Assembly (NCBI GenBank): GCA_041662625.1 | Contig: JBAZSB010000002.1 | Coordinates: 12,024 to 76,023 of the forward strand | Source of the DNA: Patescibacteria group bacterium | GTDB lineage: Bacteria; Patescibacteriota; Patescibacteriia; Buchananbacterales; UBA6539 | Length of the DNA: 64,000 nt | Direction of reading: 5' to 3' | Part shown: piece after piece, positions 3,542 to 57,344 of the stretch | How positions within the stretch are numbered: the first letter of the stretch is position 1 | How the letters are laid out: each line of letters starts with the position of its first letter | The notes under the pieces: generated by a model | Databases searched by the model: none | The model's input: the letters and a program-made list of their open reading frames with translations, nothing else | What the model was told of the DNA's origin: nothing | Program-made: the position numbers and the translations under genes

Positions 3542-3715
3542 GGTAAACGCCCTCCTATCCTTTCCTTGTTGTCTCCTTCACTAGGAACAACTCAATATTG
3601 GCAAATTTTTGCTTTTTTGTCAATCCCTAATTATATTGACGGCATGCCTAAAATATGTAAAAATTGAATTTATCCCTTGACGCAGCAGCTGGGAACAACC
3701 CATGGAGGGAGAAGT

Positions 3716-18679: not shown

Positions 18680-18742
18680 TGTCATACTGAATTTATTTCA
18701 TCATCTCTACTAACTAGATTCTGAAACAAGTTCAGAATGACA
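18680..18742. repeat. REP/MITE-like nested inverted-repeat element (TGTCAYYCTGAAYTTRTTTCA family), copy 1
   Basis: TGTCATACTGAATTTATTTCA ...spacer... TGAAACAAGTTCAGAATGACA. The two arms are mutual reverse complements and each arm is internally palindromic. Confidence 0.7.
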
Positions 18743-18958
18743 ATGTAAGGGTTATCCCCAGCTTTTGCCGACGGCGGAAAAAACCGACGGCTCAAACTTA
18801 ATTTTTTCAAAAAAATTCACCGCAACTTGGATTCGGTGAACATTTTTTCAAAGTTCTTATTTACTTTTTGGTTTTTGCGACGGCGCTAGAGTATGCGACG
18901 GCTTTATTCTTATTAATAATCTTAGCATATTGAATTGCGATGTCAATAGTTTAATTGT

Positions 18959-26492: not shown

Positions 26493-26594
26493 ATTACCTC
26501 CTGGCTTTAGTATAGCATGGATAAGAAATTAAGAAAATAAGAAATTAATAAATTAAGACTGAGTTAGGCTTTAATTTTTTAATTTTTTAATTTC

Positions 26595-27062
26595 TTATTT
26601 TTTTACTTTAAATACCAGCCAATTCTTTTTTTGCGCCGTAAACTGGGTTAAAACATAAACTCCCCGGAGCTTTTTGCCCTTCAATTCAAACTTTAAAGAC
26701 TTGGATGTATGTTCCAACAGCTTAAATTTGCCTTTGTCCAAAATTTCCACCAGGCCGGCACCGTAATTACCTTTCGGGATTACTCCGGCAAAATTAATAT
26801 AGGCAACTGGATGATCTTCTACGGCAACAGCCAAATGTTTGACTCCGGCAATAGTTGGAATACCTTTGGGTACTGCCCAAGATTTTAAAACAACCGGACC
26901 TTTAATAATTTTATCTGGCAATTCCAACCTGAAATCATAATGCAAATGTGAGGCTGAATGTTTTTGGACAACAAAACGTGACTGGCTTTTTATTTTAGCT
27001 TGTGCCTTAGGCTCCGGCGTTTTACTAAACTTTCTTTTCTTTTGATATTTTTCTAAAGCCAT
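26595..27062 (-). CDS. Stand-alone LigD-type 3'-phosphoesterase (PE) domain protein
   Basis: RFVVQKHSASHLHYDFRLE...LKSWAVPKG matches the LigD PE active-site block (HxxHxHYDFRLE, WAVPKG); 155 aa. Confidence 0.7.
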   Translation of the reverse strand: MALEKYQKKRKFSKTPEPKAQAKIKSQSRFVVQKHSASHLHYDFRLELPDKIIKGPVVLKSWAVPKGIPTIAGVKHLAVAVEDHPVAYINFAGVIPKGNYGAGLVEILDKGKFKLLEHTSKSLKFELKGKKLRGVYVLTQFTAQKKNWLVFKVKK

Positions 27063-27068
27063 ACAAAT

Positions 27069-27130
27069 AGAAATCAGAAATTAGAAATCAGAAGAATAAT
27101 TCTGATCTCTGATCTCTGATTTCTGATCTC
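27069..27130. repeat. Long imperfect inverted repeat built of tandem AGAAATCAGA units
   Basis: agaaatcagaaattagaaatcagaagaat | aattctgatctctgatctctgatttctgatctc, lying between two minus-strand genes. Confidence 0.7.
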
Positions 27131-27134
27131 TGGA

Positions 27135-27540: not shown

Positions 27541-28842
27541 TTAGCCCATGTAGTTGTCGAGTTCTTCCCGACGCATCTGATCGAAGGCATACACTGCCGG
27601 ATTGGTCTGCCCCAGAATCTGCATCGCCGCTCCGATCGCGTTGCCTTCGGGCCAAGTCGTCAGATTCGGCGTCTGCGATGGCAGGTGTACGCTTGACCAA
27701 AGATCATCCGGAAATTGCTCGAGAGTCGCTGGGACCGAAATCACTGGCCAAGGACTGTGAGCCGCGACGATCGGACCCAGACCATTGGACCGGCCGGCCT
27801 TGACCACGATGACGCCACCTTGCGGATAGTCATAGAACAGCCGTTCCAGACGCTGCAGCCCCTCAACCGGACTCTTGTGGCCGGAAGCCACGATCCGTTC
27901 AACGGTGACTCCAGGCAACTGGGGAACTTTTGGTGCTTCATCCTTGTCGGACCCAAGCCAGACAACCAGCGCCTGTCTCGGGAGCACCAAGCGTTCGGCC
28001 ATCTGGGCGACGTAACGGTAGTTCTCTTCGACTTGGCCAAGGACAGCAGCGCCACCATCGCGGAACACCTGCTTATCGAGCGGTTTGCCATTTTCCCAAA
28101 GACGCCAACTGTCGTTGTCCACGACATCGGAAACTCGGAGTTCGCTGTCGGCTTCGATCTTGATGTCAAGCCATGTGAGGCCAAAGTTCGCCCAGGCCCG
28201 CTCAAGGATCAAAGACACCCGGCGAACCAATTGATCAAGCTTGGCCATATCCGCCAGATCGGTGATGACCCCACTAGCAGGAATCTTGGCAAACGGGCTA
28301 ACCCGATGTCGACTCTCACCCTCGCCCTCTTCATGCCAGATCGGCTTCTTGGGCAAGGCAAGATCCCAGGTATCCTTGAAGGGATCAAGGATCAACGGAT
28401 CGTCGCAGGGTAGTGATAGGCCTTTCCAATCTCGACCAGTCGTCTTGAGGAAGAACTCAACCAACAACCGGTGAAAACGGTACGGCTTGGTTGGATCAGC
28501 CGTTCGAAGCTGGGGATTGCGCATCAGGAAACTGCCAACTCCCAGCCGTCGGGCGACAATCTCCAGCAGCAACATCAGCGACCGCAGCGCGACAAACTCC
28601 GTTTCGGAAATCTGCTCCACGTAAGCCACCGGCACGTCGCAAGTCCGAAGAAGTTCGAAAACGCGGCAAGTGGTTATGGTAGCACATTGGGCTTTGGACC
28701 CAAACTTCTGGGTAAAACTCGGGTCATCATGGGCAGTGATGTCCGAACCATTCCTGACGATCACCAGATCGTCTCGGCCTTCTACTGCGAAGATACCCTT
28801 GGTTTTGCCCTTGGCTATCTGCTTACCTAGTGTATACTCCAT
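27541..28842 (-). CDS. purC-purE: Bifunctional SAICAR synthetase (PurC) - N5-CAIR mutase/AIR carboxylase (PurE) fusion, PAICS-like
   Basis: The N-terminal half has PurC blocks (GKTKGIF, DDLVIVRNGSDITAHDD, WLDIKIE). The C-terminal half has PurE blocks (VVWLGSDKDE, IVASGHKSP similar to SAHRTP, AGRSNGLGPIVAAHSPWPVISVP). GC ~60%. Confidence 0.75.
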   Translation of the reverse strand: MEYTLGKQIAKGKTKGIFAVEGRDDLVIVRNGSDITAHDDPSFTQKFGSKAQCATITTCRVFELLRTCDVPVAYVEQISETEFVALRSLMLLLEIVARRLGVGSFLMRNPQLRTADPTKPYRFHRLLVEFFLKTTGRDWKGLSLPCDDPLILDPFKDTWDLALPKKPIWHEEGEGESRHRVSPFAKIPASGVITDLADMAKLDQLVRRVSLILERAWANFGLTWLDIKIEADSELRVSDVVDNDSWRLWENGKPLDKQVFRDGGAAVLGQVEENYRYVAQMAERLVLPRQALVVWLGSDKDEAPKVPQLPGVTVERIVASGHKSPVEGLQRLERLFYDYPQGGVIVVKAGRSNGLGPIVAAHSPWPVISVPATLEQFPDDLWSSVHLPSQTPNLTTWPEGNAIGAAMQILGQTNPAVYAFDQMRREELDNYMG

Positions 28843-28863
28843 GGCATTCCTTTCTCCGACTTT

Positions 28864-29397
28864 TCAGCCGATCTGTTCCTGGTCTTCCGAATCTTCCGGT
28901 CGACCTTCCGATCTCTGACCACAACGGTCACAACCGTCACACTGGTGACCCACGGCAAACCGTTTCAACTCATCGAGCATCTCCAGCACTCCCGCTGCGG
29001 GTTGACCGGATTTCTCGAGTACGGCATCAGCGACCTTGATCGAACATTTGACGCGTAGCGCCACGGCAATGGCGTCGCTGGGCCGCGAATCAACCTTGAC
29101 GACCCCGCCTGCGGTTTTCAACTCGATATAGCCCAGGAAAATCCCGTTACCAGTGAGTTGGTTGATGCCAACTTCCAAAACCTCAGCATCCAAGCCAGCC
29201 AAGATGTTCACGATTAAGTCGTGGGTCATCGGCCTTATAGGCACTTGACCAGCCAAGGCCATACCGATGGCCACAGCTTCGGCTGGACCAATCATGACTG
29301 GTAAGATCAGAGCCGCCGCTTCACTGTGTAACAACACTGTTGGTCGACCTTGGCTATCCTGGACTACAGCCAACGCATGGAGTTCTTGTCTATCCAT
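28864..29397 (-). CDS. Bifunctional-nuclease (BFN/DUF151) family protein with a Cys-rich acidic C-terminal tail
   Basis: The PSDAIAVALR motif and domain length match BFN; the C-terminus carries CDGCDRCGQ. Confidence 0.55.
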   Translation of the reverse strand: MDRQELHALAVVQDSQGRPTVLLHSEAAALILPVMIGPAEAVAIGMALAGQVPIRPMTHDLIVNILAGLDAEVLEVGINQLTGNGIFLGYIELKTAGGVVKVDSRPSDAIAVALRVKCSIKVADAVLEKSGQPAAGVLEMLDELKRFAVGHQCDGCDRCGQRSEGRPEDSEDQEQIG

Positions 29398-29476
29398 CGC
29401 ATTCTCTCCTTATGTGGAGTAAGGGTGGGCCAGCCCGGCAAAGGACCGGCCCACACCAGTTTCAGGTTGGAGAACT

Positions 29477-30745
29477 CTACTCCGGCACTTTCCCGTCGGG
29501 ATAAAGGACCGAGTGGCCCTTGCCCTGCGAGATCAGCGACCGGTACGTTTCGAGTGCCGTTTGAACGGCCGGATCAGTCAGGTCCAGTGTCTGGCGTTTC
29601 TCGGCGGCCATATAGGCGGCCTGACAGAGCCTGGTGATTTCCAAGCCGTATTCCCAGTTCAACAGTCCGTCATGGCCTTCACGGAAAGCATCACGGGCAT
29701 CGACCTGCTCATCAACGTAACCGTAAAGGTCGGGTTCGTTGGGCTGAACAGCCAGAAGGCCACGCGAAGCCGTCGACTTCTCCAAGGCCCCCTCGGCATC
29801 GGTCACGGCTTCGGCCGCGGCATCGCCGATGAAGACCTCAAGCGACGAACGCAAGGAGTTGACCTCCAAAGCATAGCCCGGGCCCATTCCTTCCATCGAG
29901 AGTCGGAGGCCCTGCTTGTCGTACATCCAAGAAGTGGCAAACTGAGCCACAACACGCTGCCGGGTCTCCGGATTCTCAAAGGTGACCAGACCGGTGGCGA
30001 AGTCTTCGGCCGGAACCAACGCGTAGTCAACGCCCATCCTCTTCAGGAGTTGGGCTCGATACTTGGGCTGGCCCCACTTCAGAAGCAGGGTATCGGCCCC
30101 AATACTAACCGGCCTGAGGAATCTCAGATCCTTGCCGACCGGTGTCAAAAGACGCCAAAGCACCGCGATGGTGTGGCAAGCCATGTCCGAAAGGACACCG
30201 CCACCTTGCCGGGTTGCATCCCAGAACCAACCCTCGTGGGGTCCAGAATGTTCTTCGCCGCCACGAGCCAAAACCAACGGCCCCATCTTTCCTTGGACGC
30301 GAGCCAGACCTTTCAGCCCTGCTTTGATGGCTTTCATGTGGATCTGGTTCTCGAAGTACGAGGTCGGGCAGCCGAGAGTCTTGGCCAGCTCAACCATACG
30401 GCGAGCCTCGGTAATGGTTCGGCCCAACGGCTTTTCGCAGATCAGCCCTTTGGGTTTCTTACCCAGTCTCGTCGCCGCATCGACGACCTGTTCCATCAAT
30501 TCAACGCGGAACGGATTCGGGGCGAAATTGGCAATCACGTCGCAATGCTCGACAAGATCGGCGACGCTTTTGTATACTACGCAATCAATTTCGCCGGTAG
30601 CGGTGGCCTTAGCGGCCAGTTGTTCCGCACCCTTCAGGGCGTGGACACCGCCGAATTCCAAACCAGGTACCAACTGGTTGGCGGCCTGCTGGAAATTGGC
30701 AACAAATCCAGCACCCATCGATCCTAGTCTGAGGATTTCCTTCAT
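29477..30745 (-). CDS. Gfo/Idh/MocA-family NAD(P)-dependent oxidoreductase
   Basis: N-terminal Rossmann fold, the EKP motif (LICEKPLGRTITEARRMVELAK) and length 422 aa; RBS AAAGGAGAG. Confidence 0.75.
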   Translation of the reverse strand: MKEILRLGSMGAGFVANFQQAANQLVPGLEFGGVHALKGAEQLAAKATATGEIDCVVYKSVADLVEHCDVIANFAPNPFRVELMEQVVDAATRLGKKPKGLICEKPLGRTITEARRMVELAKTLGCPTSYFENQIHMKAIKAGLKGLARVQGKMGPLVLARGGEEHSGPHEGWFWDATRQGGGVLSDMACHTIAVLWRLLTPVGKDLRFLRPVSIGADTLLLKWGQPKYRAQLLKRMGVDYALVPAEDFATGLVTFENPETRQRVVAQFATSWMYDKQGLRLSMEGMGPGYALEVNSLRSSLEVFIGDAAAEAVTDAEGALEKSTASRGLLAVQPNEPDLYGYVDEQVDARDAFREGHDGLLNWEYGLEITRLCQAAYMAAEKRQTLDLTDPAVQTALETYRSLISQGKGHSVLYPDGKVPE

Positions 30746-30873
30746 CAGTCTCTCCTTTCAATCAAACACTGTCTCCAATCTCTCTCCCGCCCTGAAACAG
30801 ATCAGGCCGGAACACTTCTTTTTGTTTCTTTGCCGTTTCTCCTTCCTTATCTTTTGTAACTTCCCTCGCTTGG

Positions 30874-30946
30874 TTGTGAAAAAACAAGTCTTTCCCTCCC
30901 TTTGGAAAAGACTATTAAAACTGGGTTTAATTTAACAAAAAAAAGC
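30874..30946. promoter_or_regulatory. Conserved ~73-bp upstream element, copy 1 (second copy at 34510..34590), containing the palindrome AGTCTTTCC-N9-GGAAAAGACT
   Basis: ttgtgaaaaaacaagtctttccctccctttggaaaagactattaaaactgggtttaatttaacaaaaaaaagc compared with ttgtcaaaaaaacaaagtcttcccctcacgttggaaaagacttttccctacaaaactggctttaatttaacaaaaaaaagc. Both lie 5' of minus-strand operons. Confidence 0.6.
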
Positions 30947-30982
30947 TATAAAGTCAATCACATGATGCTAATCTACAATTTA

Positions 30983-31014
30983 TGCGAATGATAATAATAT
31001 TCGCAACATTCGCA
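30983..31014. promoter_or_regulatory. Perfect inverted repeat TGCGAAT-N9-ATTCGCA plus a third ATTCGCA half-site (candidate operator)
   Basis: tgcgaat gataataat attcgca ac attcgca; AT-rich and lies ~240 bp upstream of the oxidoreductase start. Confidence 0.5.
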
Positions 31015-31226
31015 TACTACTCGCATCCATTATCATTATATTAAAAAAAGGACCAGACAACCTTCTTCATCTCGCCGAATCCGCTTTCAAGCGGAGAAGG
31101 CGGGACTTGGTCGTTATGGTCCCTTGGATCTCAATAGTGTACAAAACCCTCCTTAGTCTCGCCGTAGTCCGAAGGACGTAGGCGGATTAGTCTCGCCGTA
31201 GTCCGAAGGACAAAGGCGGACTTGGG

Positions 31227-32924
31227 TTAGTGGCGAAAGCCCCGGCACTTCTTGTCTGGCATCAGGTACAGCGTCATACCGGCCGCAGTCAGTTCCTCCT
31301 GAACTTTTCCGTCGTTGACCGAACCGGACGAAGCGAATAAGACGGTGATTCCTGCTTCGTGCAACACCAGACCAGCATCACCGAAAGGCAAGAAGCTATC
31401 CGAATAGGCAGCGGCTTCCACCAACCCTACTTTTTCCTCGTCCTGTCTGTTGGCTTCACCGCGCTCATAGCCTCGAACTGCCAGCTCTGCCGCACCGACG
31501 CGATCCATCCGACCGCATCCGTTGCCTTCCAGTTCGTAGACGATCATATCTCTGACTTGCCTCTGCCTCACAATGGTGATGGTATTGCTCTTGGCCTGAG
31601 AGCCGATTGCCCAACCAGCCTTGAGACAGCCTTCCAATTCTGGTCGGCGAGGTCCGATGATTTGCAGATCCGGATCGTCAAACGACGGCACAAACTGGCT
31701 CGGCGGATAATGAGTGTAGTCCCCGCCACCGACATGGGTAAAGATCGGGGTATTATCCATAGGTAGATTGCCAGCCAGCGCCGGATTCAACATCACACGG
31801 CACTTGCCTGTCTTTTTGCGCGCCAGTATTTCGATCGCATTTTCGTCAGCGCTGGGCGCAAACACAGCATCCAGAATCCGGCGCTGTCCTTTCGGCATAT
31901 GGTAATACAGCAGCATGTCAGCGATCTCGGCAGTGATATGGAAGTTGAACAGCAGTACGCCGCCATGAATCGCCAATTCATCGCCTTCGATCATGCTTCT
32001 GACCGCCTCGACGATGGCATCTCGTCCTTTGCCTTTGACAATCCCGGCACCGCAGATATTGACGTGCTTGTCCGCCAAGGCAAAACTGTGTGTGTCTGCC
32101 GGAAATACTGCCGCCAGCCGTGTCATGGTTTCGGTCAGCGTATGGAGATCATCCAAGTTGTTGCAGCTTGGACTCATGCCTTCAACTCCGACGAAGCGGC
32201 TCGGCGCCAACTCCCAATCACCACCACCGGTATACAAGGCGGCTGGCACTTGGTGAGGATTGGGTCCATAAGCGAGCGACAAAACCCGTTCGCCGCTGAT
32301 GCCGGCGAACTGTCCGTCGCTGATGAAATCTGCTGCTGTCAGGTAATGTCTGGCAATCATTGCCAGCGCTTTGCCGGCGAGGCGCTTTCGGGTCTCGGGT
32401 AAGACATCGCCATCGTTTTTCACCATTTCTTCCCAGACCTTGGGAATGTCAGATTCATCGACAACGACGATGCGCAAACGCTTTGAACCCATCGCTGCTT
32501 GCGCCGGTCCACCGACGTCAACCTTTTCCAGCACCTCCTCAAACGATAGCGCTCCACTGTCGATCGCGGCCTGGAGATCGTAGAATCCGCCGACGAATAT
32601 CTCGCAAAGTGGCCCGCCGAGTTCACGCAGCTCATCAAGGTGTTTGGGTTTGGCTGGTTTGGCACACAGTGCACCAAGTACCTTGGGATGCAGCGATACT
32701 ACGCCGTGGTCGAACATCGGCGGCGAGCCAATGGTCGCATAGTTGTTACAGGTAATACCACTCCCTTCGAGGAAACAGGTTGTGCCGTCCGACCCATAGA
32801 GGGTCAATCCCAATGATTCATGCAGATAGCGAGCAAATGCTGCAATCCCTTCTGTCTTGTCAGCAACGCTTAAAAACGCTGCCCTGACAATTCCTGAATC
32901 TGCCGTACTCACTTTATCACTCAT
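31227..32924 (-). CDS. purH: Bifunctional AICAR transformylase / IMP cyclohydrolase
   Basis: N-terminal MGS-like block FLSVADKT...GSDGT...LHPKV and the C-terminus ...SDSFLPFGDAG...VLFASSGSVNDG...RGFRH, which matches the PurH C-terminus (ASDAFFPFRD...QPGGSIRD...RHFRH). Confidence 0.8.
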   Translation of the reverse strand: MSDKVSTADSGIVRAAFLSVADKTEGIAAFARYLHESLGLTLYGSDGTTCFLEGSGITCNNYATIGSPPMFDHGVVSLHPKVLGALCAKPAKPKHLDELRELGGPLCEIFVGGFYDLQAAIDSGALSFEEVLEKVDVGGPAQAAMGSKRLRIVVVDESDIPKVWEEMVKNDGDVLPETRKRLAGKALAMIARHYLTAADFISDGQFAGISGERVLSLAYGPNPHQVPAALYTGGGDWELAPSRFVGVEGMSPSCNNLDDLHTLTETMTRLAAVFPADTHSFALADKHVNICGAGIVKGKGRDAIVEAVRSMIEGDELAIHGGVLLFNFHITAEIADMLLYYHMPKGQRRILDAVFAPSADENAIEILARKKTGKCRVMLNPALAGNLPMDNTPIFTHVGGGDYTHYPPSQFVPSFDDPDLQIIGPRRPELEGCLKAGWAIGSQAKSNTITIVRQRQVRDMIVYELEGNGCGRMDRVGAAELAVRGYERGEANRQDEEKVGLVEAAAYSDSFLPFGDAGLVLHEAGITVLFASSGSVNDGKVQEELTAAGMTLYLMPDKKCRGFRH

Positions 32925-32954
32925 ACTCGTCTCTCTCCTTTTCTCTCTCTGTTC

Positions 32955-34481
32955 CTAGGCCACAATGGCCAAGGGTTTCATTGCCTTCAATCCATTCTTC
33001 ATTTCTCTTCGCGCATCCTTGATCGCATCACCAACATAGGCTGCCGGATGCTTCAGTAGGTAAATCTCGCGTGGAGTTAATCCTTTCCAGACGCGCCGGA
33101 ACTTAGGATCAGCCCCGTCAGACTCCATATATTGCTCGGCTGCAACGCAAAGATTGGGCGCACCAGCTTTGACCCGGGCCACTAGTTCCTTCTTGACGAA
33201 GGTGTGAGCGCCTTCAAAGCCTTGCCGCTGCAATGCGTTGTGGAGTAATTCCGCTAACGATGCTGGTCCGAATATCTTGACCCAGTGCAGGCAGCGTTCT
33301 TCGTTGAACGCCAGAGCGCCCATCTGCCGATGCACGCTGTACAACTCCTGGGTAAAGTACTCAAGGGCTTCGATGAAAGTGCGCATCACCGAGGACCACC
33401 GCAAATCGCGTTGGAAGTTGCTCCCGCGCGTCAGCCACGGTCTTAAGGCACAACTCAACACGATTGCATCGGCGCCAATGGCGTTCTCAGCCCGAATGGG
33501 GTTGGCTTCCTTGGCTGCTCCCGCCGAAGAGGTCGAGGTAATACCGACATCCTTTGAAGGAATGACCTCGCCGAGTTCAGGCATGTGCAAGATCCGGAGA
33601 TCATCACACAGACTCATCATCGGTCCGCTGATCGCGACGAGCTCGCTGTAAAAACGAACCGTGTGATGAATAGGCGGAACCTGACTAGCACCTCTGGCTA
33701 CCGGCAAGTCAAGAATATTCATCAGCGTCCGTTCGGCTTTTTTGGGAATACCGACGGCGCGCTGCGATGCGGCGGTACCGACGAAACCACAGAACTTGCC
33801 CGGCACCGCCAAGGCAGCCCGTTGCAGTTCCACAGCGCAGTCAATGTATTGCTGATGGCCACAAGCCAGATAAAATCCGACTGTACCTGGTATGGCCGGC
33901 TGCAAGTGGGTGCGAAACATCTCCCGCATCTTCAGGTTTTCACCAATCTTGGCTCGCCAAACTTCATCGAGTGCCATCATCTTTGGCCAAATAATCAGAC
34001 TGAACACAACTCGAAGCTGCAAGGCATATGCCGTCGAAATCGTGTCATAGGAAGTTGCCGTATAGTGCAACCACTTCCAAAGTCCTTTGGGAAGATAACG
34101 GCGCATCAATGCCAGAAGCGCCAGGATATCGTGGCCGATTCCTTTGGTCTTCTTCTTTCTGTCTCCGTATTCGAGGCGATCCTGTTTTGTTGTGGTGACA
34201 TTCTTGAGGACGTAGAGCAAACGCTCTTTCGTCAGCAATTTGGCGTCCTTTTCCGGCATGATTCCGATAATGGCTAACGCCACCATCCAGAACCATTCCA
34301 CCAGGACCAACCAAAGTGCCCATTGGTCATAGCCGAGGTACGGAACCAGTTCCGGTTGCTGTTCTGCATATCTGTGATCCATATGCATCACCAGCACCCG
34401 CCGTCGATCCTTGGCTAAAACCGCGAAATACGCAATCGCGGCCGCTAACATCTCTCGGGCTTTATCAATAGTCATACGCAC
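32955..34481 (-). CDS. Adenylosuccinate-lyase-like protein (fumarate-lyase superfamily), divergent with a hydrophobic N-terminal extension
   Basis: A fumarate-lyase signature-like block TSTSSAGAAKEANPIRAEN (consensus GSSxMPxKxNP), length 508 aa and operon context with purH/purC-E; RBS AAGGAGG. Confidence 0.5.
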   Translation of the reverse strand: MRMTIDKAREMLAAAIAYFAVLAKDRRRVLVMHMDHRYAEQQPELVPYLGYDQWALWLVLVEWFWMVALAIIGIMPEKDAKLLTKERLLYVLKNVTTTKQDRLEYGDRKKKTKGIGHDILALLALMRRYLPKGLWKWLHYTATSYDTISTAYALQLRVVFSLIIWPKMMALDEVWRAKIGENLKMREMFRTHLQPAIPGTVGFYLACGHQQYIDCAVELQRAALAVPGKFCGFVGTAASQRAVGIPKKAERTLMNILDLPVARGASQVPPIHHTVRFYSELVAISGPMMSLCDDLRILHMPELGEVIPSKDVGITSTSSAGAAKEANPIRAENAIGADAIVLSCALRPWLTRGSNFQRDLRWSSVMRTFIEALEYFTQELYSVHRQMGALAFNEERCLHWVKIFGPASLAELLHNALQRQGFEGAHTFVKKELVARVKAGAPNLCVAAEQYMESDGADPKFRRVWKGLTPREIYLLKHPAAYVGDAIKDARREMKNGLKAMKPLAIVA

Positions 34482-34509
34482 ACCTCCTTAGTTCCAACTC
34501 CAACCCTAA

Positions 34510-34590
34510 TTGTCAAAAAAACAAAGTCTTCCCCTCACGTTGGAAAAGACTTTTCCCTACAAAACTGGCTTTAATTTAACAAAAAAAAGC
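34510..34590. promoter_or_regulatory. Conserved ~73-bp upstream element, copy 2
   Basis: See 30874..30946; lies ~30-110 bp upstream of the purB-like start. Confidence 0.6.
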
Positions 34591-34608
34591 CTGACCGTCA
34601 AATGAAGA

Positions 34609-35229
34609 CTAATCAAGCCTGATGGCATTCAATACTTGCCAAATTTGCTCCGGCGTGGTTTCGGGCACAACGGCAAACTCGATGATTCGCACTTGGCCCG
34701 CCCGATAGTGCTGGATTAAAGGCAAGGTTTGTTGGTAGTAAATCCTAAGCCTCTCCGCAATGGCAGCAGGTGTGTTGTCGTCTCGGCCGCGGCGTTCATC
34801 ATGAGCATCAAGGGCAATCCTGGCAGCAACATCATCTGGTGAACACTCCAGTACCACCACCAGTTTGATTGTGGCAAAAGATTCAACCATGCGCGCCTGA
34901 AAGACGTTGCGGGGCAGACCGTTAAGAACTACCCAGTCATCAGCTCCAACGGCCGACTCAAGGTAATGCCTTAGGATTTTTCCCGCCACGGGAAATTCAT
35001 CGTCGGCAAGCAACCTGCTAGCAGCAAAAACTTGCCCTATTACTTCATGATCATGAGCATCCAAAAAAGGCATGACGTCCGGTTGTTTCTGAGCAGTTCT
35101 CAGCTGGTCCCCGAAGTCAAAATGACAGCAACGTCTGCCGCCAAAGCCCTGCTCTTGGATTAACTTACCCAGCGGTGATTTACCACTGCCAGTTGGACCT
35201 ACTACTAAAAGAGCTTTGTGTCGACGCAT
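34609..35229 (-). CDS. Adenylate-kinase-family nucleoside monophosphate kinase
   Basis: P-loop GPTGSGKS, NMP-binding and LID-like motifs (LNGLPRN, RRGRDDN). Start placed at the internal ATG that has RBS GGAGGAAGG; the ORF opens at 35307. Confidence 0.6.
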   Translation of the reverse strand: MRRHKALLVVGPTGSGKSPLGKLIQEQGFGGRRCCHFDFGDQLRTAQKQPDVMPFLDAHDHEVIGQVFAASRLLADDEFPVAGKILRHYLESAVGADDWVVLNGLPRNVFQARMVESFATIKLVVVLECSPDDVAARIALDAHDERRGRDDNTPAAIAERLRIYYQQTLPLIQHYRAGQVRIIEFAVVPETTPEQIWQVLNAIRLD

Positions 35230-35353
35230 TGTCCTTCCTCCGTTGTTGGGACAAACTTTTCGCCTCAAGATTAGATTAAAATTAACAGAAAATAACCAAG
35301 GCGTCAATAAAAGTCAATTGACAAAAAATAGCAACAAAACTATGCTACTAATA

Positions 35354-35552
35354 GCTGGGCGCACCGACCTTTGGTGAAACTTGTATCGGCTTCGGCCTGT
35401 CAACTGTTTGTCACCCATAACTGGTGCGCCCAACCCGAAAACTTACTGCCCTTTGTCTGGCTCACTACCAGGGCACGATCCCTGTCCTCCCCATGCAGGC
35501 CACGAATCTATGCAATGTAGTTCACCGCTACTCGTGGCCTGCTCTTTTTTTT
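35354..35552 (+). ncRNA. Candidate structured small RNA with intrinsic terminator (family unassigned)
   Basis: GC-rich segment in an intergenic region: a 9-bp closing stem GGGCGCACC/GGUGCGCCC encloses a UUCG-tetraloop hairpin (GGCUUCGGCC); further hairpins follow (CUGGCUCACUACCAG, CAGGGCACGAUCCCUG); it ends in an 11-bp stem GCAGGCCACGA/TCGTGGCCTGC plus T8. Confidence 0.35.
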
Positions 35553-35608
35553 GATTGAAAAAACTCCTCTCTTCTGCTAAGCTTAGATAGTTAAATGTTA
35601 AATGTTAA

Positions 35609-36703
35609 TTGTTAATTGTTATTATGTCGTTTAGTATCGGCATCGTCGGCCTGCCTAACGTCGGCAAATCAACACTTTTCAAAGCCCTGACCAAAAAACA
35701 GGTTGATGCTTCTAATTATCCTTTTTGCACCATTGACCCAAACATTGGAGTGGTGGCCGTGCCTGATGAACGAATTGATAAATTGTCAGTGATGTCAAAA
35801 TCAGCCAAAACGATTTATACCACCATTGAATTTGTTGACATCGCCGGCCTAGTTAAGGATGCTCATAAAGGTGAAGGGCTGGGTAACCAATTTTTAGCCA
35901 ACATCCGGGAAGTTGATGCCATTGTTCAAGTCGTCCGGCAGTTTTCCGATAAAAATGTCATTCATGTCGCCGGCAAGGTGGACCCCGAGTCGGACAAAGA
36001 AACAATTAGTCTGGAATTAATTTTTGCTGATTTACAAACTTTGGGAAAAAGAATCAGTAAAAACCAAAAAGATTTACATGCCAATTTAAAAGAAGCAAAA
36101 GAGATTCAGCCGGTTTTGGAAAAATTAAAAACCGGCTTTAACGCCGGCAAGCTGGCTTCGGAAATCATTACTGATGAAAAAGAAAAATTATTAATCCGCG
36201 ACTTGAATCTTTTGACCATCAAACCAATGATTTATGTTTTGAATGTGGATGAAGACAAAGTTTATCCCGCCTCCGCTAAAGCTACGGCGGGCAAGCAAGA
36301 AACAGATTACATTACCATTTCGGCAAAAATTGAATCGGAATTAGCCGAACTGCCCGAGGTCGAAGCTAAAGAAATGCTCAAAGAACTCAAGCTGGAATCT
36401 TCAGGTTTAGATAAACTGATCAAAAAATCATACGAAATTTTAGGCTTGATTACTTTTTTGACTACCGGTCCGACCGAATCACGCGCTTGGACAATCAAAA
36501 AAGGGACAAAAGCGCCCCAGGCCGCCGGCGTGATCCACACTGATTTTGAAAAAAACTTTATCCGCGCTGAAGTGATTAACTGGCAAAAATTGTTGGAAGT
36601 TGGCTCTGAAGCTAAGGCCAAGGAATTAGGCTTAATCCGGATTGAAGGCAAAGATTACGTGATGCAAGACGGCGACACGGTTTATTTTAGAACTAACGCC
36701 TAA
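35609..36703 (+). CDS. ychF: Ribosome-binding ATPase YchF (Obg-like GTPase family)
   Basis: G1 GIVGLPNVGKSTLF, G3 DIAGLV, NxxD, and a C-terminal TGS domain (RAWTI..GTKAPQAAGVIHTDFEKNFIRAEV); 364 aa. Confidence 0.9.
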   Translation: MLIVIMSFSIGIVGLPNVGKSTLFKALTKKQVDASNYPFCTIDPNIGVVAVPDERIDKLSVMSKSAKTIYTTIEFVDIAGLVKDAHKGEGLGNQFLANIREVDAIVQVVRQFSDKNVIHVAGKVDPESDKETISLELIFADLQTLGKRISKNQKDLHANLKEAKEIQPVLEKLKTGFNAGKLASEIITDEKEKLLIRDLNLLTIKPMIYVLNVDEDKVYPASAKATAGKQETDYITISAKIESELAELPEVEAKEMLKELKLESSGLDKLIKKSYEILGLITFLTTGPTESRAWTIKKGTKAPQAAGVIHTDFEKNFIRAEVINWQKLLEVGSEAKAKELGLIRIEGKDYVMQDGDTVYFRTNA

Positions 36704-41561: not shown

Positions 41562-41634
41562 TATGTCACCCTGAACTTGTTTCAGGGTCTTGATTTAAAT
41601 CTTAGAGATGCCGAAACAAGTTCGGCATGACACA
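41562..41634. repeat. REP/MITE-like nested inverted-repeat element, copy 2
   Basis: TATGTCACCCTGAACTTGTTTCAGGGTC ... GCCGAAACAAGTTCGGCATGACACA. Confidence 0.7.
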
Positions 41635-41645
41635 TACTTAAAAAT

Positions 41646-41753
41646 ATGGGACAAAACAGCGCTTTAAGAGCCAGAATCAAACATGCGAAAAAAAATACCC
41701 GAAAAGGTAAAGAGTTAAGAATGAAAACTCGGGACCTCCGACCTAAAAGATAA
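41646..41753 (+). CDS. Small basic ORF (35 aa) resembling the N-terminus of ribosomal protein S20; possible truncated rpsT
   Basis: MGQNSALRARIKHAKKNTRKGKELRMKTRDLRPKR resembles the S20 N-terminus (..NIKSAKKR....K.R.KN..). It is followed by a terminator hairpin AGCCGGGAAACTGGCT + T7 and there is no SD. Confidence 0.25.
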   Translation: MGQNSALRARIKHAKKNTRKGKELRMKTRDLRPKR

Positions 41754-43677: not shown

Positions 43678-44094
43678 CTACTTGGTTTTTTCTAATATTG
43701 CAGCCAGTATCCTCAGTAATTCCATATTTTCCTGTAATATCGGTTTGATTTCTTCTTGAAGTTGAGTGTTAGCTTCGATCATTAAATTCAGCCAATAAAT
43801 AGTTTCTTTGGCTTCTTTGCGGCTGATCCTTAATCGAAATTGAAAATCTTTTTTTGTTTCTGTCTCATTAGCTTCACGATAATTAGCGCCAATTGATGTG
43901 CCTGACCTTATAGCCTGGCGGCCTAATACAAAATTGATATCATTTTTAGGTAAGACCTTAGCTAGTCTAATAAGTCTTTTGCTAAATTCCAAGGTCCTAT
44001 CTTCTAAGTCATACCGTTTTGAATTTTGAACATTAGTGCTTGGAATTTGTTTGGAATTTGAGATTTTGGATTTGTAATTTTCAACATAGCCCAT
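43678..44094 (-). CDS. Four-helix-bundle protein of the '23S rRNA intervening-sequence protein' family (TIGR02436-like)
   Basis: ...SIGANYREA...DFQFRLRISRKEAKETIYWLNLM matches the family core (GANI.EA....dF..fl.iA.GS..E...wl). The N-terminal ~20 aa (ENYKSKISNSKQIPSTN) are encoded by the repeat element, so the true start is uncertain. Confidence 0.6.
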   Translation of the reverse strand: MGYVENYKSKISNSKQIPSTNVQNSKRYDLEDRTLEFSKRLIRLAKVLPKNDINFVLGRQAIRSGTSIGANYREANETETKKDFQFRLRISRKEAKETIYWLNLMIEANTQLQEEIKPILQENMELLRILAAILEKTK

Positions 44095-55410: not shown

Positions 55411-55499
55411 AGGCTAAATTATAATTTTTAATTATTAATTTTGAATCAATTTTGAATATTCAAATATTAAAATATTGAATCAAAATTCGAATTTCAAAA

Positions 55500-56831
55500 T
55501 TAATAATTATAATTGCTATCTTTTAACTTTTTCAATTCTTCTCTAACAATTGCCCGGTCATCCCAGGGAATATTTTTATCCCCAACCACCATGGCTTGCT
55601 CACAACCCTTACCGGTAATCAAAACTAAATCATCAGGCCCAGCTAAACTCAAGGCTTTAGAAATTGCTTCCCGGCGATCTAAAATTTTAAATAAATTTTG
55701 ATTAATGATTTTGCCCTCTTCAATTGCTCCGGCCGCGACCTGATCAATAATGGTTTGCGGATCGTCATCATAGGGATCTTCATTAGTGACAATTACCAAA
55801 TCAGCTTTTTGGCCAGCCAACTGGCCAAGTTTGGGTCGGCGGGCAATATCCCTTCCGCCACCGGTTGAACCTAAAACCTGAATCACTTTCTGATGCGGAA
55901 TTAATTTAACAATATCATAGAGAGCACCAACCGCCTTTGGTTCATAAGCATAGTCAACAATTATTTTAAACGCTTGGCCTTCACTAATAAATTCAATGCG
56001 ACCCGGTATCCCCTCAATTGTCCCAAGGCTTTTAGCCATACTGGCCAAACTTAAACCTTGCGATAAACCAATGGTGATAGCGGCTAAAGAATTATAAATA
56101 TTATGTTGGCCAAAAAGTTTAAACTCAAAAATTTGACGGTCGATGACAAACTCAATGCCATCGGCTGTAACTTTTTGATTTTCTGCCCGAATGACTCGGC
56201 CCTGATTGGTGGACTTATTAGTCAGAGTAAAAACTAATTTTTCTTCCGCCCAATTATTTAAAAAGTCATTAACATTTTCATCGTCCAAATTTGCAATGAT
56301 AGTCTTTTTAATTTTTTGACCACTAATTAATTTTGGTGAATCATTTTTAAGCTTTTTAAATAATTTTAATTTAGCATTTTTATAGTTAGCAAACCCACCA
56401 TGGGCCTCGATATGCTCCGGGTATAAATTAGTAAAAACTAAAATATCATAATTAATACCTAAATGGCGAAATTGCTCAATGCCCTGGGAAGTCGTTTCAA
56501 TCACCGCATACTGACAATTGAATTTGACCATCTGCTTAATTAATTTCTGCAAAGCCAACCGGCCAACCATTGTCATCTTTTTATTATTCAGCCACTCTTT
56601 TCTATCCACCTGAAAAAAGAAAGTTGAAGCCGCCCCCACTTTATAACCGGCTTTTTCTAAAATTTTAGTAATCAAATAAACGACACTTGATTTGCCCGAA
56701 GTTCCGGTAACACCAATCACAATGAGTTTATCAGACGGTGAACCATAAAAAAAATTAGCGGCAATTGCCAGAGTATAATGGTAAGCCTTAATGAAAGGTT
56801 TAGGAATTATTTTACGCAGAAAAGTTAACAT
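55500..56831 (-). CDS. Mur ligase family protein, MurE-like UDP-N-acetylmuramoyl-tripeptide ligase
   Basis: P-loop VIGVTGTSGKSS, the central domain, and the C-terminal GKGCEQAMVVGDKNIPWDDRAIVREEL matching the Mur C-terminal block (GKGHE.yQ...k.pF.Dre.vreaL). Confidence 0.65.
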   Translation of the reverse strand: MLTFLRKIIPKPFIKAYHYTLAIAANFFYGSPSDKLIVIGVTGTSGKSSVVYLITKILEKAGYKVGAASTFFFQVDRKEWLNNKKMTMVGRLALQKLIKQMVKFNCQYAVIETTSQGIEQFRHLGINYDILVFTNLYPEHIEAHGGFANYKNAKLKLFKKLKNDSPKLISGQKIKKTIIANLDDENVNDFLNNWAEEKLVFTLTNKSTNQGRVIRAENQKVTADGIEFVIDRQIFEFKLFGQHNIYNSLAAITIGLSQGLSLASMAKSLGTIEGIPGRIEFISEGQAFKIIVDYAYEPKAVGALYDIVKLIPHQKVIQVLGSTGGGRDIARRPKLGQLAGQKADLVIVTNEDPYDDDPQTIIDQVAAGAIEEGKIINQNLFKILDRREAISKALSLAGPDDLVLITGKGCEQAMVVGDKNIPWDDRAIVREELKKLKDSNYNY

Positions 56832-56846
56832 AGAAAATTATGTATT

Positions 56847-56910
56847 AAGAATTATAAATTCAGAATTGTCACCCTGAATTTATTTCAGAATCTCTGAATT
56901 TATAATTCTT
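56847..56910. repeat. Perfect 18-bp inverted repeat (AAGAATTATAAATTCAGA) enclosing a REP-like arm (copy 3 of the family)
   Basis: aagaattataaattcagaa TTGTCACCCTGAATTTATTTCAGAATC tctgaatttataattctt. Confidence 0.7.
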
Positions 56911-57131: not shown

Positions 57132-57344
57132 ATGCGCATTAATGCCAAAAAATTAGGCAAAAACATCAAAAACAAACGGCTAAGAAAAGGCATCTCACAA
57201 GAGATGCTGGCCCGAGCCGCTAATTTGAAGCTCTCTAATTTAGCGAAATTAGAGGGCGGTTTTAATTCTAATCCAACTTTAGAAACACTGGCTAGTATTG
57301 CCGGTGTTTTAACTAACGGGAGTATCGATGCCTTGGTTAGATAG
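57132..57344 (+). CDS. XRE-family helix-turn-helix transcriptional regulator
   Basis: KNKRLRKGISQEMLARAANLKLSNLAKLEGG matches the HTH_3 pattern; 70 aa. Confidence 0.8.
   Translation: MRINAKKLGKNIKNKRLRKGISQEMLARAANLKLSNLAKLEGGFNSNPTLETLASIAGVLTNGSIDALVR

What the first reader, a model, noticed from the sequence alone, without database searches (positions are those of the whole stretch)
18680..18742. Family of REP/MITE-like nested-hairpin elements (TGTCAYYCTGAAYTTRTTTCA), 3 copies, one nested inside a perfect 18-bp inverted repeat
Copies occur at 18680-18742 (between the GreA-C-like gene and the next gene), 41562-41634 (immediately after efp) and 56866-56892 (upstream of the MurE-like gene). 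Each copy consists of two arms that are mutual reverse complements, and each arm is itself a hairpin (e.g. ACCCTGAA-CTTGT-TTCAGGGT). The third copy is bracketed by the perfect inverted repeat AAGAATTATAAATTCAGA ... TCTGAATTTATAATTCTT (56847-56910). This is the signature of a small non-autonomous mobile or REP-like element family and is useful as a strain marker. The copies may act as mRNA-stability elements or recombination sites.
Basis: seen in the sequence. Interest (0 to 1): 0.5.

Follow-up and report, generated by a model that had tools for sequence, protein, structure and literature searches.

The report
CGTC-type REP hairpins; linked GIY-YIG nuclease
The three repeats are real copies of a known, very widespread family of bacterial hairpin repeats (CGTC-2 REPs), and tracing the family showed that the same hairpin pairs regularly enclose a tiny GIY-YIG nuclease gene, a candidate for the enzyme this repeat family was reported to lack.

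Summary
The window, from a Patescibacteria MAG, holds five arms of TGTCA + 8-bp stem + 5-nt loop + C, against 0.01 expected by chance. They form two head-to-head dimers (18680-18742, 41564-41632) and one single chimeric arm (56867-56892) at the centre of a perfect 18-bp inverted repeat.

They belong to the CGTC-2 family of tagged REPs (Di Nocera et al. 2013). That family is known, spans several phyla, and was reported to have no dedicated transposase. The "REP-like" reading is therefore supported. The IS200/RAYT and MITE-with-duplication parts are not: no such gene recurs near arms, the tag is not GTAG, and there is no target-site duplication. The efp copy is missing from relatives at 92, 81 and 71% identity, so it is a lineage-specific gain or loss.

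Following the family outward gave an association I did not find in the literature. A roughly 90-100-aa GIY-YIG nuclease gene sits inside head-to-head CGTC arm pairs at nearly all of about 20 independent sites, across CGTC-1, -2 and -3 and many phyla (background: 1 of 650 ORFs). Homology between copies stops at the arms' outer edges. A Sinorhizobium site holds a clean internally deleted derivative and has an unoccupied orthologous site.

The window itself has no nuclease gene. Its copies are gene-less, and two arms are partly decayed.

The parts
18680..18705 (+). Copy 1, arm A: decayed ATGC-type ('TG', right-end type) CGTC-2 arm, TGTCATACTGAATTTATTTCATCATC. It differs by two substitutions from GTCATGCTGAATTTATTTCAGCATC and keeps 6 of 8 stem pairs.
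18717..18742 (-). Copy 1, arm B: intact ATTC-type (left-end type) CGTC-2 arm, TGTCATTCTGAACTTGTTTCAGAATC, 8/8 stem pairs. With arm A it forms a head-to-head heterodimer (11-nt spacer by these coordinates), 25 nt upstream of the GreA-C-like gene start.
41563..41589 (+). Copy 2, arm A: intact ACCC-type (left-end type) arm, (A)TGTCACCCTGAACTTGTTTCAGGGTC, starting 7 nt after the efp stop codon.
41607..41632 (-). Copy 2, arm B: intact ATGC-type (right-end type) arm, TGTCATGCCGAACTTGTTTCGGCATC. It forms a head-to-head heterodimer with arm A (17-nt spacer) and ends 13 nt before the ATG of a conserved 35-aa basic ORF.
56866..56892 (+). Copy 3: single chimeric arm, TTGTCACCCTGAATTTATTTCAGAATC. The 5' stem half is ACCC-type and the 3' half ATTC-type, giving 6/8 pairs.
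56847..56910 (.). Perfect 18-bp inverted repeat AAGAATTATAAATTCAGA / TCTGAATTTATAATTCTT enclosing copy 3. Its inner 11-13 nt resemble REP halves. It occurs only here in the window, 16 nt upstream of the Mur ligase start codon.

Best explanation
The three loci are gene-less members of the CGTC-2 family of tagged repetitive extragenic palindromes. Each arm is a (C/T)GTC tag followed by an 8-bp stem, a 5-nt loop (CTTGT or TTTAT) and a short tail. Two arms in head-to-head orientation make one unit.

I propose that these units are the non-autonomous form of a small selfish cassette: left hairpin, then a gene for a ~90-100-aa stand-alone GIY-YIG nuclease, then right hairpin. The nuclease, supplied in trans from a copy elsewhere in the genome, would recognise the tagged hairpins (as single-stranded hairpins or an extruded cruciform) and cut at or near the tag. 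The unit would then be copied into new intergenic sites without a target duplication, either by repair-mediated copying (homing-like) or by a cut-and-paste or copy-out reaction.

Shown here: the family membership, selection for each arm's own hairpin, insertion polymorphism, the gene-arm association, the shared left/right arm asymmetry, unit boundaries at the arms, and one natural deletion derivative.

Inferred only: that the nuclease acts on the arms, the cleavage site, and the copying mechanism.

In this window the copies look like products of past activity. Copy 2 is intact and recent. One arm of copy 1 and the arm of copy 3 have decayed or recombined. As a side effect, the stable hairpins (-21 to -31 kcal/mol as RNA) in the efp 3' region and in two 5' leaders probably influence mRNA stability or translation.
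For: Family identity:
- Tag, 8-bp stem beginning A-T, 5-nt loop, tail, head-to-head heterodimers and lack of a transposase all match the published CGTC-2 description.
- The Sulfurovum CGTC-2 peptide RHSELVSGS back-translates compatibly to CGTCATTCTGAACTTGTTTCAGGATC.

Hairpin selection:
- In 173 arms, stem pair 5-21 reads CG 83 / GC 61 / TA 19, with about 95% of cells paired. Pair 7-19 reads TA 142 / CG 27.
- Only 5 of 55 dimers have arms that match each other at the variable stem positions.

Mobility:
- The efp copy is absent in relatives at 92, 81 and 71% protein identity.
- There is no target-site duplication.

Gene link:
- A Pfam GIY-YIG ORF (E 1e-15) lies inside head-to-head arms in L109, L014 and L065.
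- Every context fetched by protein homology alone shows arms on at least one side: L205, L206, L207, L218, L219 and L233 have a canonical forward arm 13-120 nt upstream; L205, L207, L219 and L233 also have a canonical reverse arm within about 20 nt of the stop; L204, L206, L208 and L218 have decayed or loop-expanded arms. L224 and L225 are bracketed by other GTCA-tagged hairpin types.
- In finished proteobacterial replicons the gene is bracketed by that host's own CGTC-1 or CGTC-3 arms.
- Background: 3.2% of 650 other ORFs have an upstream arm and 1 of 650 has both, against 6 of 8 for the first set of GIY-YIG sites, P = 3e-8.

Shared asymmetry:
- The 5' arm is non-ATGC in 8 of 8 gene-bearing units and the 3' arm is ATGC-type in at least 8 of 10.
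- 38 of 53 gene-less dimers pair one ATGC arm with one non-ATGC arm, against 24.8 expected, P = 0.001. Window copies 1 and 2 fit.

Boundaries:
- Homology between non-orthologous copies starts and stops at the arms' outer edges.

Derivative and unoccupied site:
- In S. meliloti a 162-nt unit equals the 376-nt unit minus one 213-nt internal deletion (154/162 identical).
- Strain K101 lacks both units at the same gltA-lpxB site.

The nuclease's catalytic residues are invariant across 15 members tied to CGTC-1, -2 and -3 arms.
Against: - The window contains no GIY-YIG gene or remnant (best HMM E about 4). Only 64 kb of the 172-kb contig was seen, so a trans-acting copy in this genome is assumed, not shown.
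- No biochemical or genetic evidence shows that the nuclease binds or cuts the arms.
- The association is equally expected if the gene merely homes into pre-existing REP dimers.
- Long-spacer CGTC-2 dimers show no gene remnants. The only deletion intermediate found is in a CGTC-3 host.
- The first GIY-YIG queries came from REP-adjacent genes, so the sampled clade is partly pre-selected. Other UPF0213 proteins (for example the solved BH0048 and EF2693) were not examined for arms.
- Some sites (L204/L111, L220, L238, L239) sit within REP clusters where the bracketing is less clean.
- Gene-less dimers show no orientation bias relative to neighbouring genes (6 vs 8).
Confidence: 0.6

Rival explanations
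1. Landing-pad model. CGTC REP dimers exist and spread independently by an unknown route. The small GIY-YIG gene is a separate selfish homing-type gene that specifically inserts between the two arms of existing dimers, much as IS110-family elements target REPs. Under this model the window copies are unoccupied targets, not derivatives.
For: The gene always lies between arms, and most dimers are gene-less (about 4 occupied among roughly 220 arms). GIY-YIG enzymes are classic homing endonucleases (established knowledge), and there is a weak sub-threshold NCBIfam similarity to group I intron endonucleases. The K101 site holds REP arms without the gene. Long CGTC-2 spacers hold no gene remnants.
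Against: Homology between non-orthologous copies includes the arms, the leader and the trailer and ends at the arms' outer edges. The left/right arm asymmetry of gene-less dimers matches that of gene-bearing units. The S. meliloti 162-nt unit is an internal-deletion product that keeps both arms. Arm family changes together with the nuclease lineage and host. None of this fully excludes homing. The two models also overlap, because in both the nuclease would recognise the arms.
Confidence: 0.25
2. One reading: REPIN-like elements mobilised by an IS200/IS605-type Y1 (RAYT) transposase encoded elsewhere in the genome.
For: The architecture (two inverted palindromic REPs plus a spacer, with no target duplication) is that of REPINs/BIMEs. 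The published survey left open that CGTC repeats might be mobilised by RAYTs or other transposases (PMC3733652).
Against: The tag is (C/T)GTC, not GTAG. No transposase-like family recurs near arms in 120 loci, where recurring clusters are housekeeping genes. None of 30 window ORFs scanned is a transposase. The 2013 survey found RAYT genes in CGTC hosts, but none flanked by CGTC units. A different, consistently associated nuclease gene was found instead.
Confidence: 0.05
3. Host-function model: the hairpins are primarily cis-acting RNA or DNA elements (3'-end mRNA stabilisers, terminators, translation modulators or protein-binding sites) kept by selection, and any link to mobile genes is secondary.
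For: Stable folds: z-scores of -3.9 to -7.4 and -21 to -31 kcal/mol. There is strong stem covariation. Copy 2 begins 7 nt after the efp stop codon. REPs that close to a stop codon reduce translation in E. coli (Liang, Rudd and Deutscher 2015, recalled from memory, not checked here). One arm scores as a weak terminator-like site.
Against: The copies are not conserved at orthologous sites. The three window copies sit in three different kinds of context: an intra-operon 3' region, a 5' leader and a divergent promoter region. Two arms have broken stems. There is no U-tract. Wobble pairs are no commoner than C-A mismatches, so there is no strand-specific RNA signature. No Rfam family matches even at E <= 1. 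Near-identical sequence across phyla is not needed for a generic hairpin function.
Confidence: 0.1

Closest known systems
CGTC-tagged REPs, family CGTC-2 (Di Nocera, De Gregorio & Rocco, BMC Genomics 2013, PMC3733652)
   Same: The (C/T)GTC unpaired tag, an 8-bp stem starting with A-T residues, a 5-nt loop, a short tail, head-to-head heterodimers, intergenic location with occasional intragenic units, and presence in several phyla. The sequence is compatible with the published Sulfurovum CGTC-2 peptide.
   Different: The host phylum (Patescibacteria) and several others seen here (Melainabacteria, Nitrospirota, Ignavibacteria, Elusimicrobia, a Nanoarchaeota MAG) are outside the five phyla listed in 2013. 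The tail is mostly CTN here, not the CCA consensus. The paper reports no dedicated enzyme, whereas a GIY-YIG gene is found inside the dimers here.
REPIN-RAYT / REPtron systems (GTAG REPs with TnpA-REP Y1 transposases; Nunvar 2010; Bertels & Rainey 2011; Ton-Hoang 2012; from established knowledge and PMC3116915, PMC8266576 listings)
   Same: The same logic: two inverted palindromic REPs form a non-autonomous unit, many gene-less copies accompany few gene-bearing copies flanked by the same hairpins, and there is no target duplication.
   Different: The tag differs (CGTC vs GTAG), and the associated protein is a ~90-aa GIY-YIG nuclease, not a HUH/Y1 transposase. REPIN families are lineage-specific and mostly inherited vertically, whereas this arm sequence is nearly identical across phyla.
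GIY-YIG homing endonucleases (e.g. I-TevI) and stand-alone UPF0213/YhbQ-type GIY-YIG proteins (PDB 1zg2, 1ywl)
   Same: The same catalytic fold and invariant Tyr, Arg, His, Glu and Asn residues. They behave selfishly, being inserted between operon partners (carA|carB, cydA|cydB, sufB|sufC, NurA|HerA-like).
   Different: There is no intron or intein context and no separate DNA-binding domain. The gene is bracketed by tagged hairpins, which is not a described feature of homing endonuclease genes.
Rickettsia palindromic elements and Neisseria dRS3/NIME repeats (classed as CGTC-4/-1 and CGTC-1 by Di Nocera et al.)
   Same: They belong to the same tagged-hairpin superfamily. In the N. gonorrhoeae record the GIY-YIG gene sits inside an array of GTCATTCCCGC...GCGGGAAT arms.
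   Different: The stem and loop sequences differ. RPEs are known for in-frame insertion into genes, which is not seen in this window.

Membership tests
CGTC-2 tagged REP (Di Nocera 2013) | Unpaired 5' tag CGTC (TGTC allowed) next to the stem | tested here: met
   All five window arms start TGTC. In 173 arms from other genomes the base before GTC is C in 98 and T in 58.
CGTC-2 tagged REP (Di Nocera 2013) | [quoted passage not shown] | tested here: met
   Three arms have 8/8 pairs and two have 6/8, interpreted as decayed. The loops are CTTGT or TTTAT.
CGTC-2 tagged REP (Di Nocera 2013) | Short unpaired 3' tail (consensus CCA) | tested here: inconclusive
   A tail beginning with C is present (C in 164 of 173 arms), but the commonest tails are CTC, CTT and CCA (40, 37, 36). 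The window tails are CTT, CTC, CTA and (decayed arm 18680) CTC.
CGTC-2 tagged REP (Di Nocera 2013) | Mostly head-to-head dimers, heterodimers in CGTC-2 | tested here: met
   64 head-to-head, 10 tail-to-tail and 7 head-to-tail in 120 loci. 50 of 55 unique dimers have arms that differ. Window copies 1 and 2 are head-to-head heterodimers and copy 3 is a singleton.
CGTC-2 tagged REP (Di Nocera 2013) | Sequence identity with a published CGTC-2 unit | tested here: met
   The supplement lists the Sulfurovum CGTC-2 intragenic unit as RHSELVSGS, which is compatible at every codon with CGTCATTCTGAACTTGTTTCAGGATC. This is indirect, because the consensus figure itself is not held.
CGTC-2 tagged REP (Di Nocera 2013) | High copy number across the host genome | not testable with these tools
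   Only 64 kb of the 172-kb contig was seen. It holds five arms against 0.01 expected.
REPIN/RAYT system | GTAG tag at the REP 5' end | tested here: not met
   The tag is TGTC/CGTC.
REPIN/RAYT system | A Y1 (HUH) RAYT transposase gene flanked by the same REPs | tested here: not met
   No transposase was found among 30 window ORFs. No transposase-like cluster appeared in 120 loci. The literature reports none for CGTC repeats. The rest of the host genome could not be examined.
MITE (IS-derived, DDE transposase) | Target-site duplication flanking terminal inverted repeats | tested here: not met
   The 12-nt flanks of 64 dimers share a mean of 3.4 identical positions as direct repeats, the random level, and only 1 of 64 reaches 8 or more.
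Intrinsic terminator | G+C-rich stem followed by a U/T run | tested here: not met
   Only one arm (41568-41588) scores weakly, with tail CTTGATTTAA. The other sites give none.
Known structured RNA (Rfam 15) | Match to a curated covariance model | tested here: not met
   There are no hits at the three sites at gathering threshold or at E <= 1.
   Copy 2 pairs ACCC with ATGC. Copy 1 pairs ATTC with a decayed ATGC arm. The same asymmetry holds in 8 of 8 5' arms, at least 8 of 10 3' arms, and 38 of 53 gene-less dimers.
   The window has no GIY-YIG gene or remnant (tblastn; HMM best E about 4). The rest of the genome is not available. A Kerfeldbacteria (CPR) contig does show an arm, 21 nt, then the gene.

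The most novel reading that the evidence does not exclude
CGTC-tagged REPs (CGTC-1, -2 and -3, including Neisseria dRS3-type and rhizobial repeats) are the terminal hairpins and miniature derivatives of a previously unrecognised, cross-phylum class of mobile elements. The only gene of such an element is a ~90-aa stand-alone GIY-YIG nuclease. This would be a GIY-YIG counterpart of the REPIN-RAYT system, and the missing enzyme for a repeat superfamily reported in 2013 to have none.
Probability: 0.5. Interest if true: 0.85.

Novelty: new member of a known kind. Interest (0 to 1): 0.55.

Why it matters
Taken alone, the window repeats are an ordinary new occurrence of a described repeat family, now seen in a reduced Patescibacteria genome.

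The wider value lies in what the family led to. CGTC REPs occur in many bacteria, including Neisseria, rhizobia, sphingomonads, Bacteroidota and CPR. In 2013 they were reported to have no dedicated mobilising enzyme and an unexplained preference for heterodimers.

A nuclease gene that consistently sits between the arms offers two things. It gives a concrete, testable candidate enzyme. It also offers a simple explanation of the heterodimers as distinct left and right ends of one unit.

If confirmed, this would define a new type of prokaryotic mobile element and give a function to thousands of genes now annotated only as 'GIY-YIG nuclease family protein'. It would also improve annotation, because the arms regularly generate spurious ORFs such as MLKQVQHD... 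and ...VILNLFQNL....

Tried and rejected
1. Close relatives fetched through the exact efp protein (L001-L003) were 100% identical across the region compared, so they say nothing about conservation.
2. Literature searches for the DNA motif and its peptide read-throughs found nothing. Searches pairing GIY-YIG with REP, REPIN, RAYT, palindromic repeats, YhbQ or UPF0213 found no relevant paper. This covers the held open-access library only.
3. Target-site duplication or a palindromic insertion target: neither is general. Copy 3 sits at the centre of a palindrome, and the 2013 paper notes such cases.
4. Association with 23S_rRNA_IVP four-helix-bundle genes was my first guess. Those genes are inserted after efp in L127 and L134 but are not flanked by CGTC arms, so I dropped it.
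5. Orientation bias of asymmetric dimers relative to neighbouring genes: none (6 vs 8).
6. Nuclease-gene remnants in long-spacer CGTC-2 dimers: none.
7. One long inter-arm hairpin as the selected structure: rejected, because arms match each other at the variable positions in only 5 of 55 dimers while each arm's own stem covaries.
8. Other GTCA-tagged hairpin types or extra degenerate copies in the window: none above chance.
9. An unoccupied copy of the 36-bp palindrome that hosts copy 3: none in the window.

Full report
**1. Observation**

They lie at 18680-18700 (+), 18722-18742 (-), 41564-41584 (+), 41612-41632 (-) and 56867-56887 (+). Shuffles of the window give 0.01. A looser core search adds only two 2-mismatch hits, which is the chance level.

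Each arm reads TGTC-A, then a stem of 8 positions, a 5-nt loop (CTTGT or TTTAT), the complementary stem, and C.

- Copies 1 and 2 are pairs of arms in inverted, head-to-head orientation, with spacers of 11 and 17 nt by the part coordinates.
- Copy 3 is a single arm lying exactly in the centre of a perfect 18-bp inverted repeat (56847-56864 / 56893-56910).
- Three arms have perfect 8/8 stems. Arm 18680 and the copy-3 arm have 6/8.
- Arm 18680 differs by two substitutions from the common ATGC-type arm.
- The copy-3 arm is chimeric: an ACCC 5' half and an ATTC-type 3' half.
- All three regions fold far better than shuffles: -21 to -31 kcal/mol, z from -3.9 to -7.4.

Context:
- Copy 1 lies between a 201-aa ORF and a GreA/GreB C-terminal-domain gene, both on the minus strand.
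- Copy 2 starts 7 nt after the efp stop and ends 13 nt before a conserved 35-aa basic ORF.
- Copy 3 is 16 nt upstream of a Mur ligase gene, in a divergent intergenic region.
- The host is a Patescibacteria group MAG.

**2. What the repeat is**

The loci come from Bacteroidota, Sphingomonadales, Treponema, Melainabacteria, Nitrospirota, Ignavibacteria, Elusimicrobia, several CPR lineages and a Nanoarchaeota MAG. A species-specific REP family does not behave like this.

In 173 arms the stem positions that the pattern left free covary strongly:
- pair 5-21: CG 83, GC 61, TA 19, about 95% paired;
- pair 4-22: TA 140, CG 26;
- pair 7-19: TA 142, CG 27;
- loop positions 1 and 4: CG 107, TA 61, mixed 5.

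G-T wobbles are no commoner than C-A mismatches, so there is no strand-specific RNA signature.

The base before GTC is C in 98 arms and T in 58. This pointed to the 'CGTC-tagged REPs' of Di Nocera et al. 2013 (PMC3733652). That paper describes the following features:
- a terminal CGTC, often changed to TGTC;
- stems of 8 bp (families 1 and 2) that begin with A-T residues;
- loops of 5 nt in family 2;
- short tails;
- predominantly head-to-head dimers, and heterodimers in CGTC-2;
- presence in five phyla;
- no associated transposase.

Its supplement lists a Sulfurovum CGTC-2 unit as peptide RHSELVSGS. That back-translates compatibly to CGTCATTCTGAACTTGTTTCAGGATC.

In the 120 loci I count 64 head-to-head, 10 tail-to-tail and 7 head-to-tail pairs, with no target-site duplication. 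Only 5 of 55 unique dimers have arms that match each other at the variable stem positions. Each arm's own hairpin is therefore the conserved structure, not one long hairpin across both arms.

Rfam has no match at these sites, at gathering threshold or at E <= 1.

I file the window elements as CGTC-2 REPs.

**3. Polymorphism**

Metagenome relatives of the efp locus at 92% (L124), 81% (L126) and 71% (L128) protein identity keep efp and the small basic ORF but lack the dimer.
- L124 carries an unrelated AT-rich palindrome at that spot.
- L127 and L134 carry a four-helix-bundle gene there.
- L129 (61%) has an independent single CGTC-2 arm.

The efp copy is therefore a lineage-specific gain or loss at an insertion-prone site.

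**4. Search for a partner gene**

Clustering 842 ORFs from the 120 loci gave only housekeeping families and no transposase. One small cluster stood out: a ~95-102-aa ORF directly beside arms in L014, L109 and L111, and in the CPR contig L065. Pfam identifies it as a GIY-YIG catalytic domain (E 1e-15).

In L109 the ORF lies inside a head-to-head pair. The forward arm ends 25 nt before the ATG, and the reverse arm follows the stop.

I then tested from the gene's side.

*First protein search.* A profile search found at least 7,996 homologs, annotated only as 'GIY-YIG nuclease family protein'. In the contexts fetched purely by protein identity:
- a forward arm lies 13-120 nt upstream in L205, L206, L207 and L218;
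- a canonical reverse arm lies within about 20 nt of the stop in L205 and L207;
- L204, L206, L208 and L218 have decayed or loop-expanded 3' arms there.

*Background control.* With strict arm criteria, 6 of 8 independent sites have the upstream arm. Among 650 other ORFs from loci that were themselves selected for containing arms, 3.2% have an upstream arm and 1 of 650 is bracketed on both sides (P = 3e-8).

*Second protein search, from the CPR fragment.* This reached Chloroflexota, Ignavibacteria, Deltaproteobacteria, Acidobacteriota and Firmicutes. The contexts were as follows:
- L219 (between carA and carB) and L233 (between cydA and cydB) have canonical CGTC-2 arms on both sides;
- L220 is a frameshifted copy flanked by dimers;
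- L224 and L225 are bracketed by other GTCA-tagged hairpin types.

*Finished replicons.* In finished proteobacterial replicons the gene is bracketed by the host's own CGTC family:

| Host | Forward arm upstream (nt) | Reverse arm downstream (nt) | Arm type |
|---|---|---|---|
| S. meliloti | 24 | 12 | CGTC-3 |
| Shinella | 24 | 21 | CGTC-3 |
| Sphingobium | 60 | 11 | CGTC-3-like |
| Aeromonas caviae | 65 | 21 | CGTC-1 |
| N. aromaticivorans pNL2 | 41 | 5 | GC-rich variant, identical arms |
| A. lipoferum (between sufB and sufC) | dimer on each side | dimer on each side | CGTC-1 |

The identical arms on pNL2 match the homodimers the 2013 paper reports for that species. The N. gonorrhoeae copy lies inside an array of CGTC-1 arms.

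Several of these hosts are species the 2013 paper lists as CGTC carriers.

**5. Are the arms part of the unit?**

Four results bear on this.

- **Shared asymmetry.** In gene-bearing CGTC-2 units the 5' arm is never the ATGC type (8 of 8), and the 3' arm is the ATGC type in at least 8 of 10. Of 53 unique gene-less dimers, 38 pair exactly one ATGC arm with one other arm, against 24.8 expected (P = 0.001). This offers an explanation for the heterodimer preference that the 2013 paper called unexplained. Window copies 1 and 2 fit it.
- **Boundaries.** Querying the S. meliloti unit with about 340 nt of flank on each side shows that non-orthologous copies share homology over roughly positions 341-716. 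The arms' outer edges are at 343 and 715. For CGTC-2, L219 vs L233 homology ends at the reverse arm's outer edge, and L206 vs L218 homology begins at the forward arm's outer edge.
- **A deletion derivative.** The S. meliloti gltA-lpxB spacer carries, upstream of the full 376-nt unit, a 162-nt unit that equals the full one minus a single 213-nt internal deletion (154/162 identical). It keeps both arms, the leader and the last 77 nt of the gene. This is a natural step from a gene-bearing unit to a gene-less one.
- **An unoccupied site.** Sinorhizobium sp. K101 lacks both units at that site.

The nuclease keeps the Tyr/Gly of the YIG motif, Arg, His, Glu and Asn invariant in 15 members tied to all three CGTC families. 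Its nearest solved relatives are the uncharacterised UPF0213 proteins 1zg2 and 1ywl.

**6. Interpretation**

The best-supported reading is that the window copies are gene-less CGTC-2 units related to a hairpin-nuclease-hairpin cassette. The GIY-YIG nuclease is the candidate enzyme acting on the tagged hairpins.

- Shown: family membership, hairpin covariation, insertion polymorphism, the gene-arm association with a background control, the shared arm asymmetry, unit boundaries, one deletion derivative and one unoccupied site.
- Not shown: any activity of the nuclease on the arms, the cut site, whether spread is homing-like or transposition-like, and whether this particular genome encodes the nuclease.

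The window has no GIY-YIG gene and no transposase among 30 ORFs scanned.

The main rival is that the gene simply homes into pre-existing dimers. The data disfavour this but do not exclude it, and in both cases the nuclease would recognise the arms. A RAYT partner and a purely host-functional RNA or terminator role are poorly supported.

**7. Novelty**

The repeats themselves are a new occurrence of a known family, in a phylum not listed in 2013. I did not find the GIY-YIG association in the held literature, which covers open-access papers and bioRxiv only. It makes the open question of what mobilises CGTC REPs directly testable.

Noticed in passing
window 41646-41753 (+): A 35-aa, very basic ORF (MGQNSALRARIKHAKKNTRKGKELRMKTRDLRPKR) lies directly after efp. 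It is conserved at the protein level in relatives L124, L126 and L128, so it is probably a real small protein that gene callers may miss.
   Followed up: partly
window 26521-26609, 27069-27132, 55417-55514; L124 about 3575-3650: AT-rich palindromic repeats (e.g. AAATTAAGAAAATAAGAAATTAA...) form a second palindrome family. The 92% relative carries one of this kind at the efp site, where the window has the REP dimer.
   Followed up: partly
window 43678-44094 (-); L127 and L134 just after efp: A 23S_rRNA_IVP (four-helix-bundle) gene. Homologous small genes are inserted right after efp in two relatives, which suggests that these genes are also mobile. They are not flanked by CGTC arms.
   Followed up: partly
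window 57313-64000 (+): One giant ORF of at least 2,229 aa runs off the right end of the window. This explains the apparent lack of ORFs there.
   Followed up: yes
window 28000-36000: A block with 51-54% G+C against about 40% elsewhere. It has long overlapping ORFs on both strands (e.g. 29477-30745 - and 29513-30727 +). It was not examined.
   Followed up: no
L240 (S. meliloti Ak57 pSymB-labelled record, gltA-lpxB spacer) and L245 (Sinorhizobium sp. K101): A tandem array: a 162-nt internally deleted unit, 124 nt, the 376-nt full GIY-YIG unit, 121 nt, then an arm. The two inter-unit spacers are 103/117 identical. K101 has only one doubly tagged hairpin and one arm at the same site.
   Followed up: yes
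L204, L219, L220 upstream of the GIY-YIG start codons: A recurrent TAAATATTTAGG-like motif lies 25-45 nt upstream of the nuclease ATG in several units. It may be a promoter or a second recognition site.
   Followed up: no
L208, L218, L204 3' arms; L010, L016: Some arms carry an extra hairpin inserted in the loop (e.g. GATGCTGAA-ACCAGGCTGCCTAACGGCAGCCAGG-TTCAGCAT), so the arm loop itself seems to accept insertions.
   Followed up: no
many loci (e.g. L013, L041, L049, L081) and window 18682-18810 (-): Arms create recurrent spurious ORF peptides (MLKQVQHD..., ...RNKFGMT..., ...VILNLFQNL...). These can extend or fake gene calls in public annotations.
   Followed up: partly
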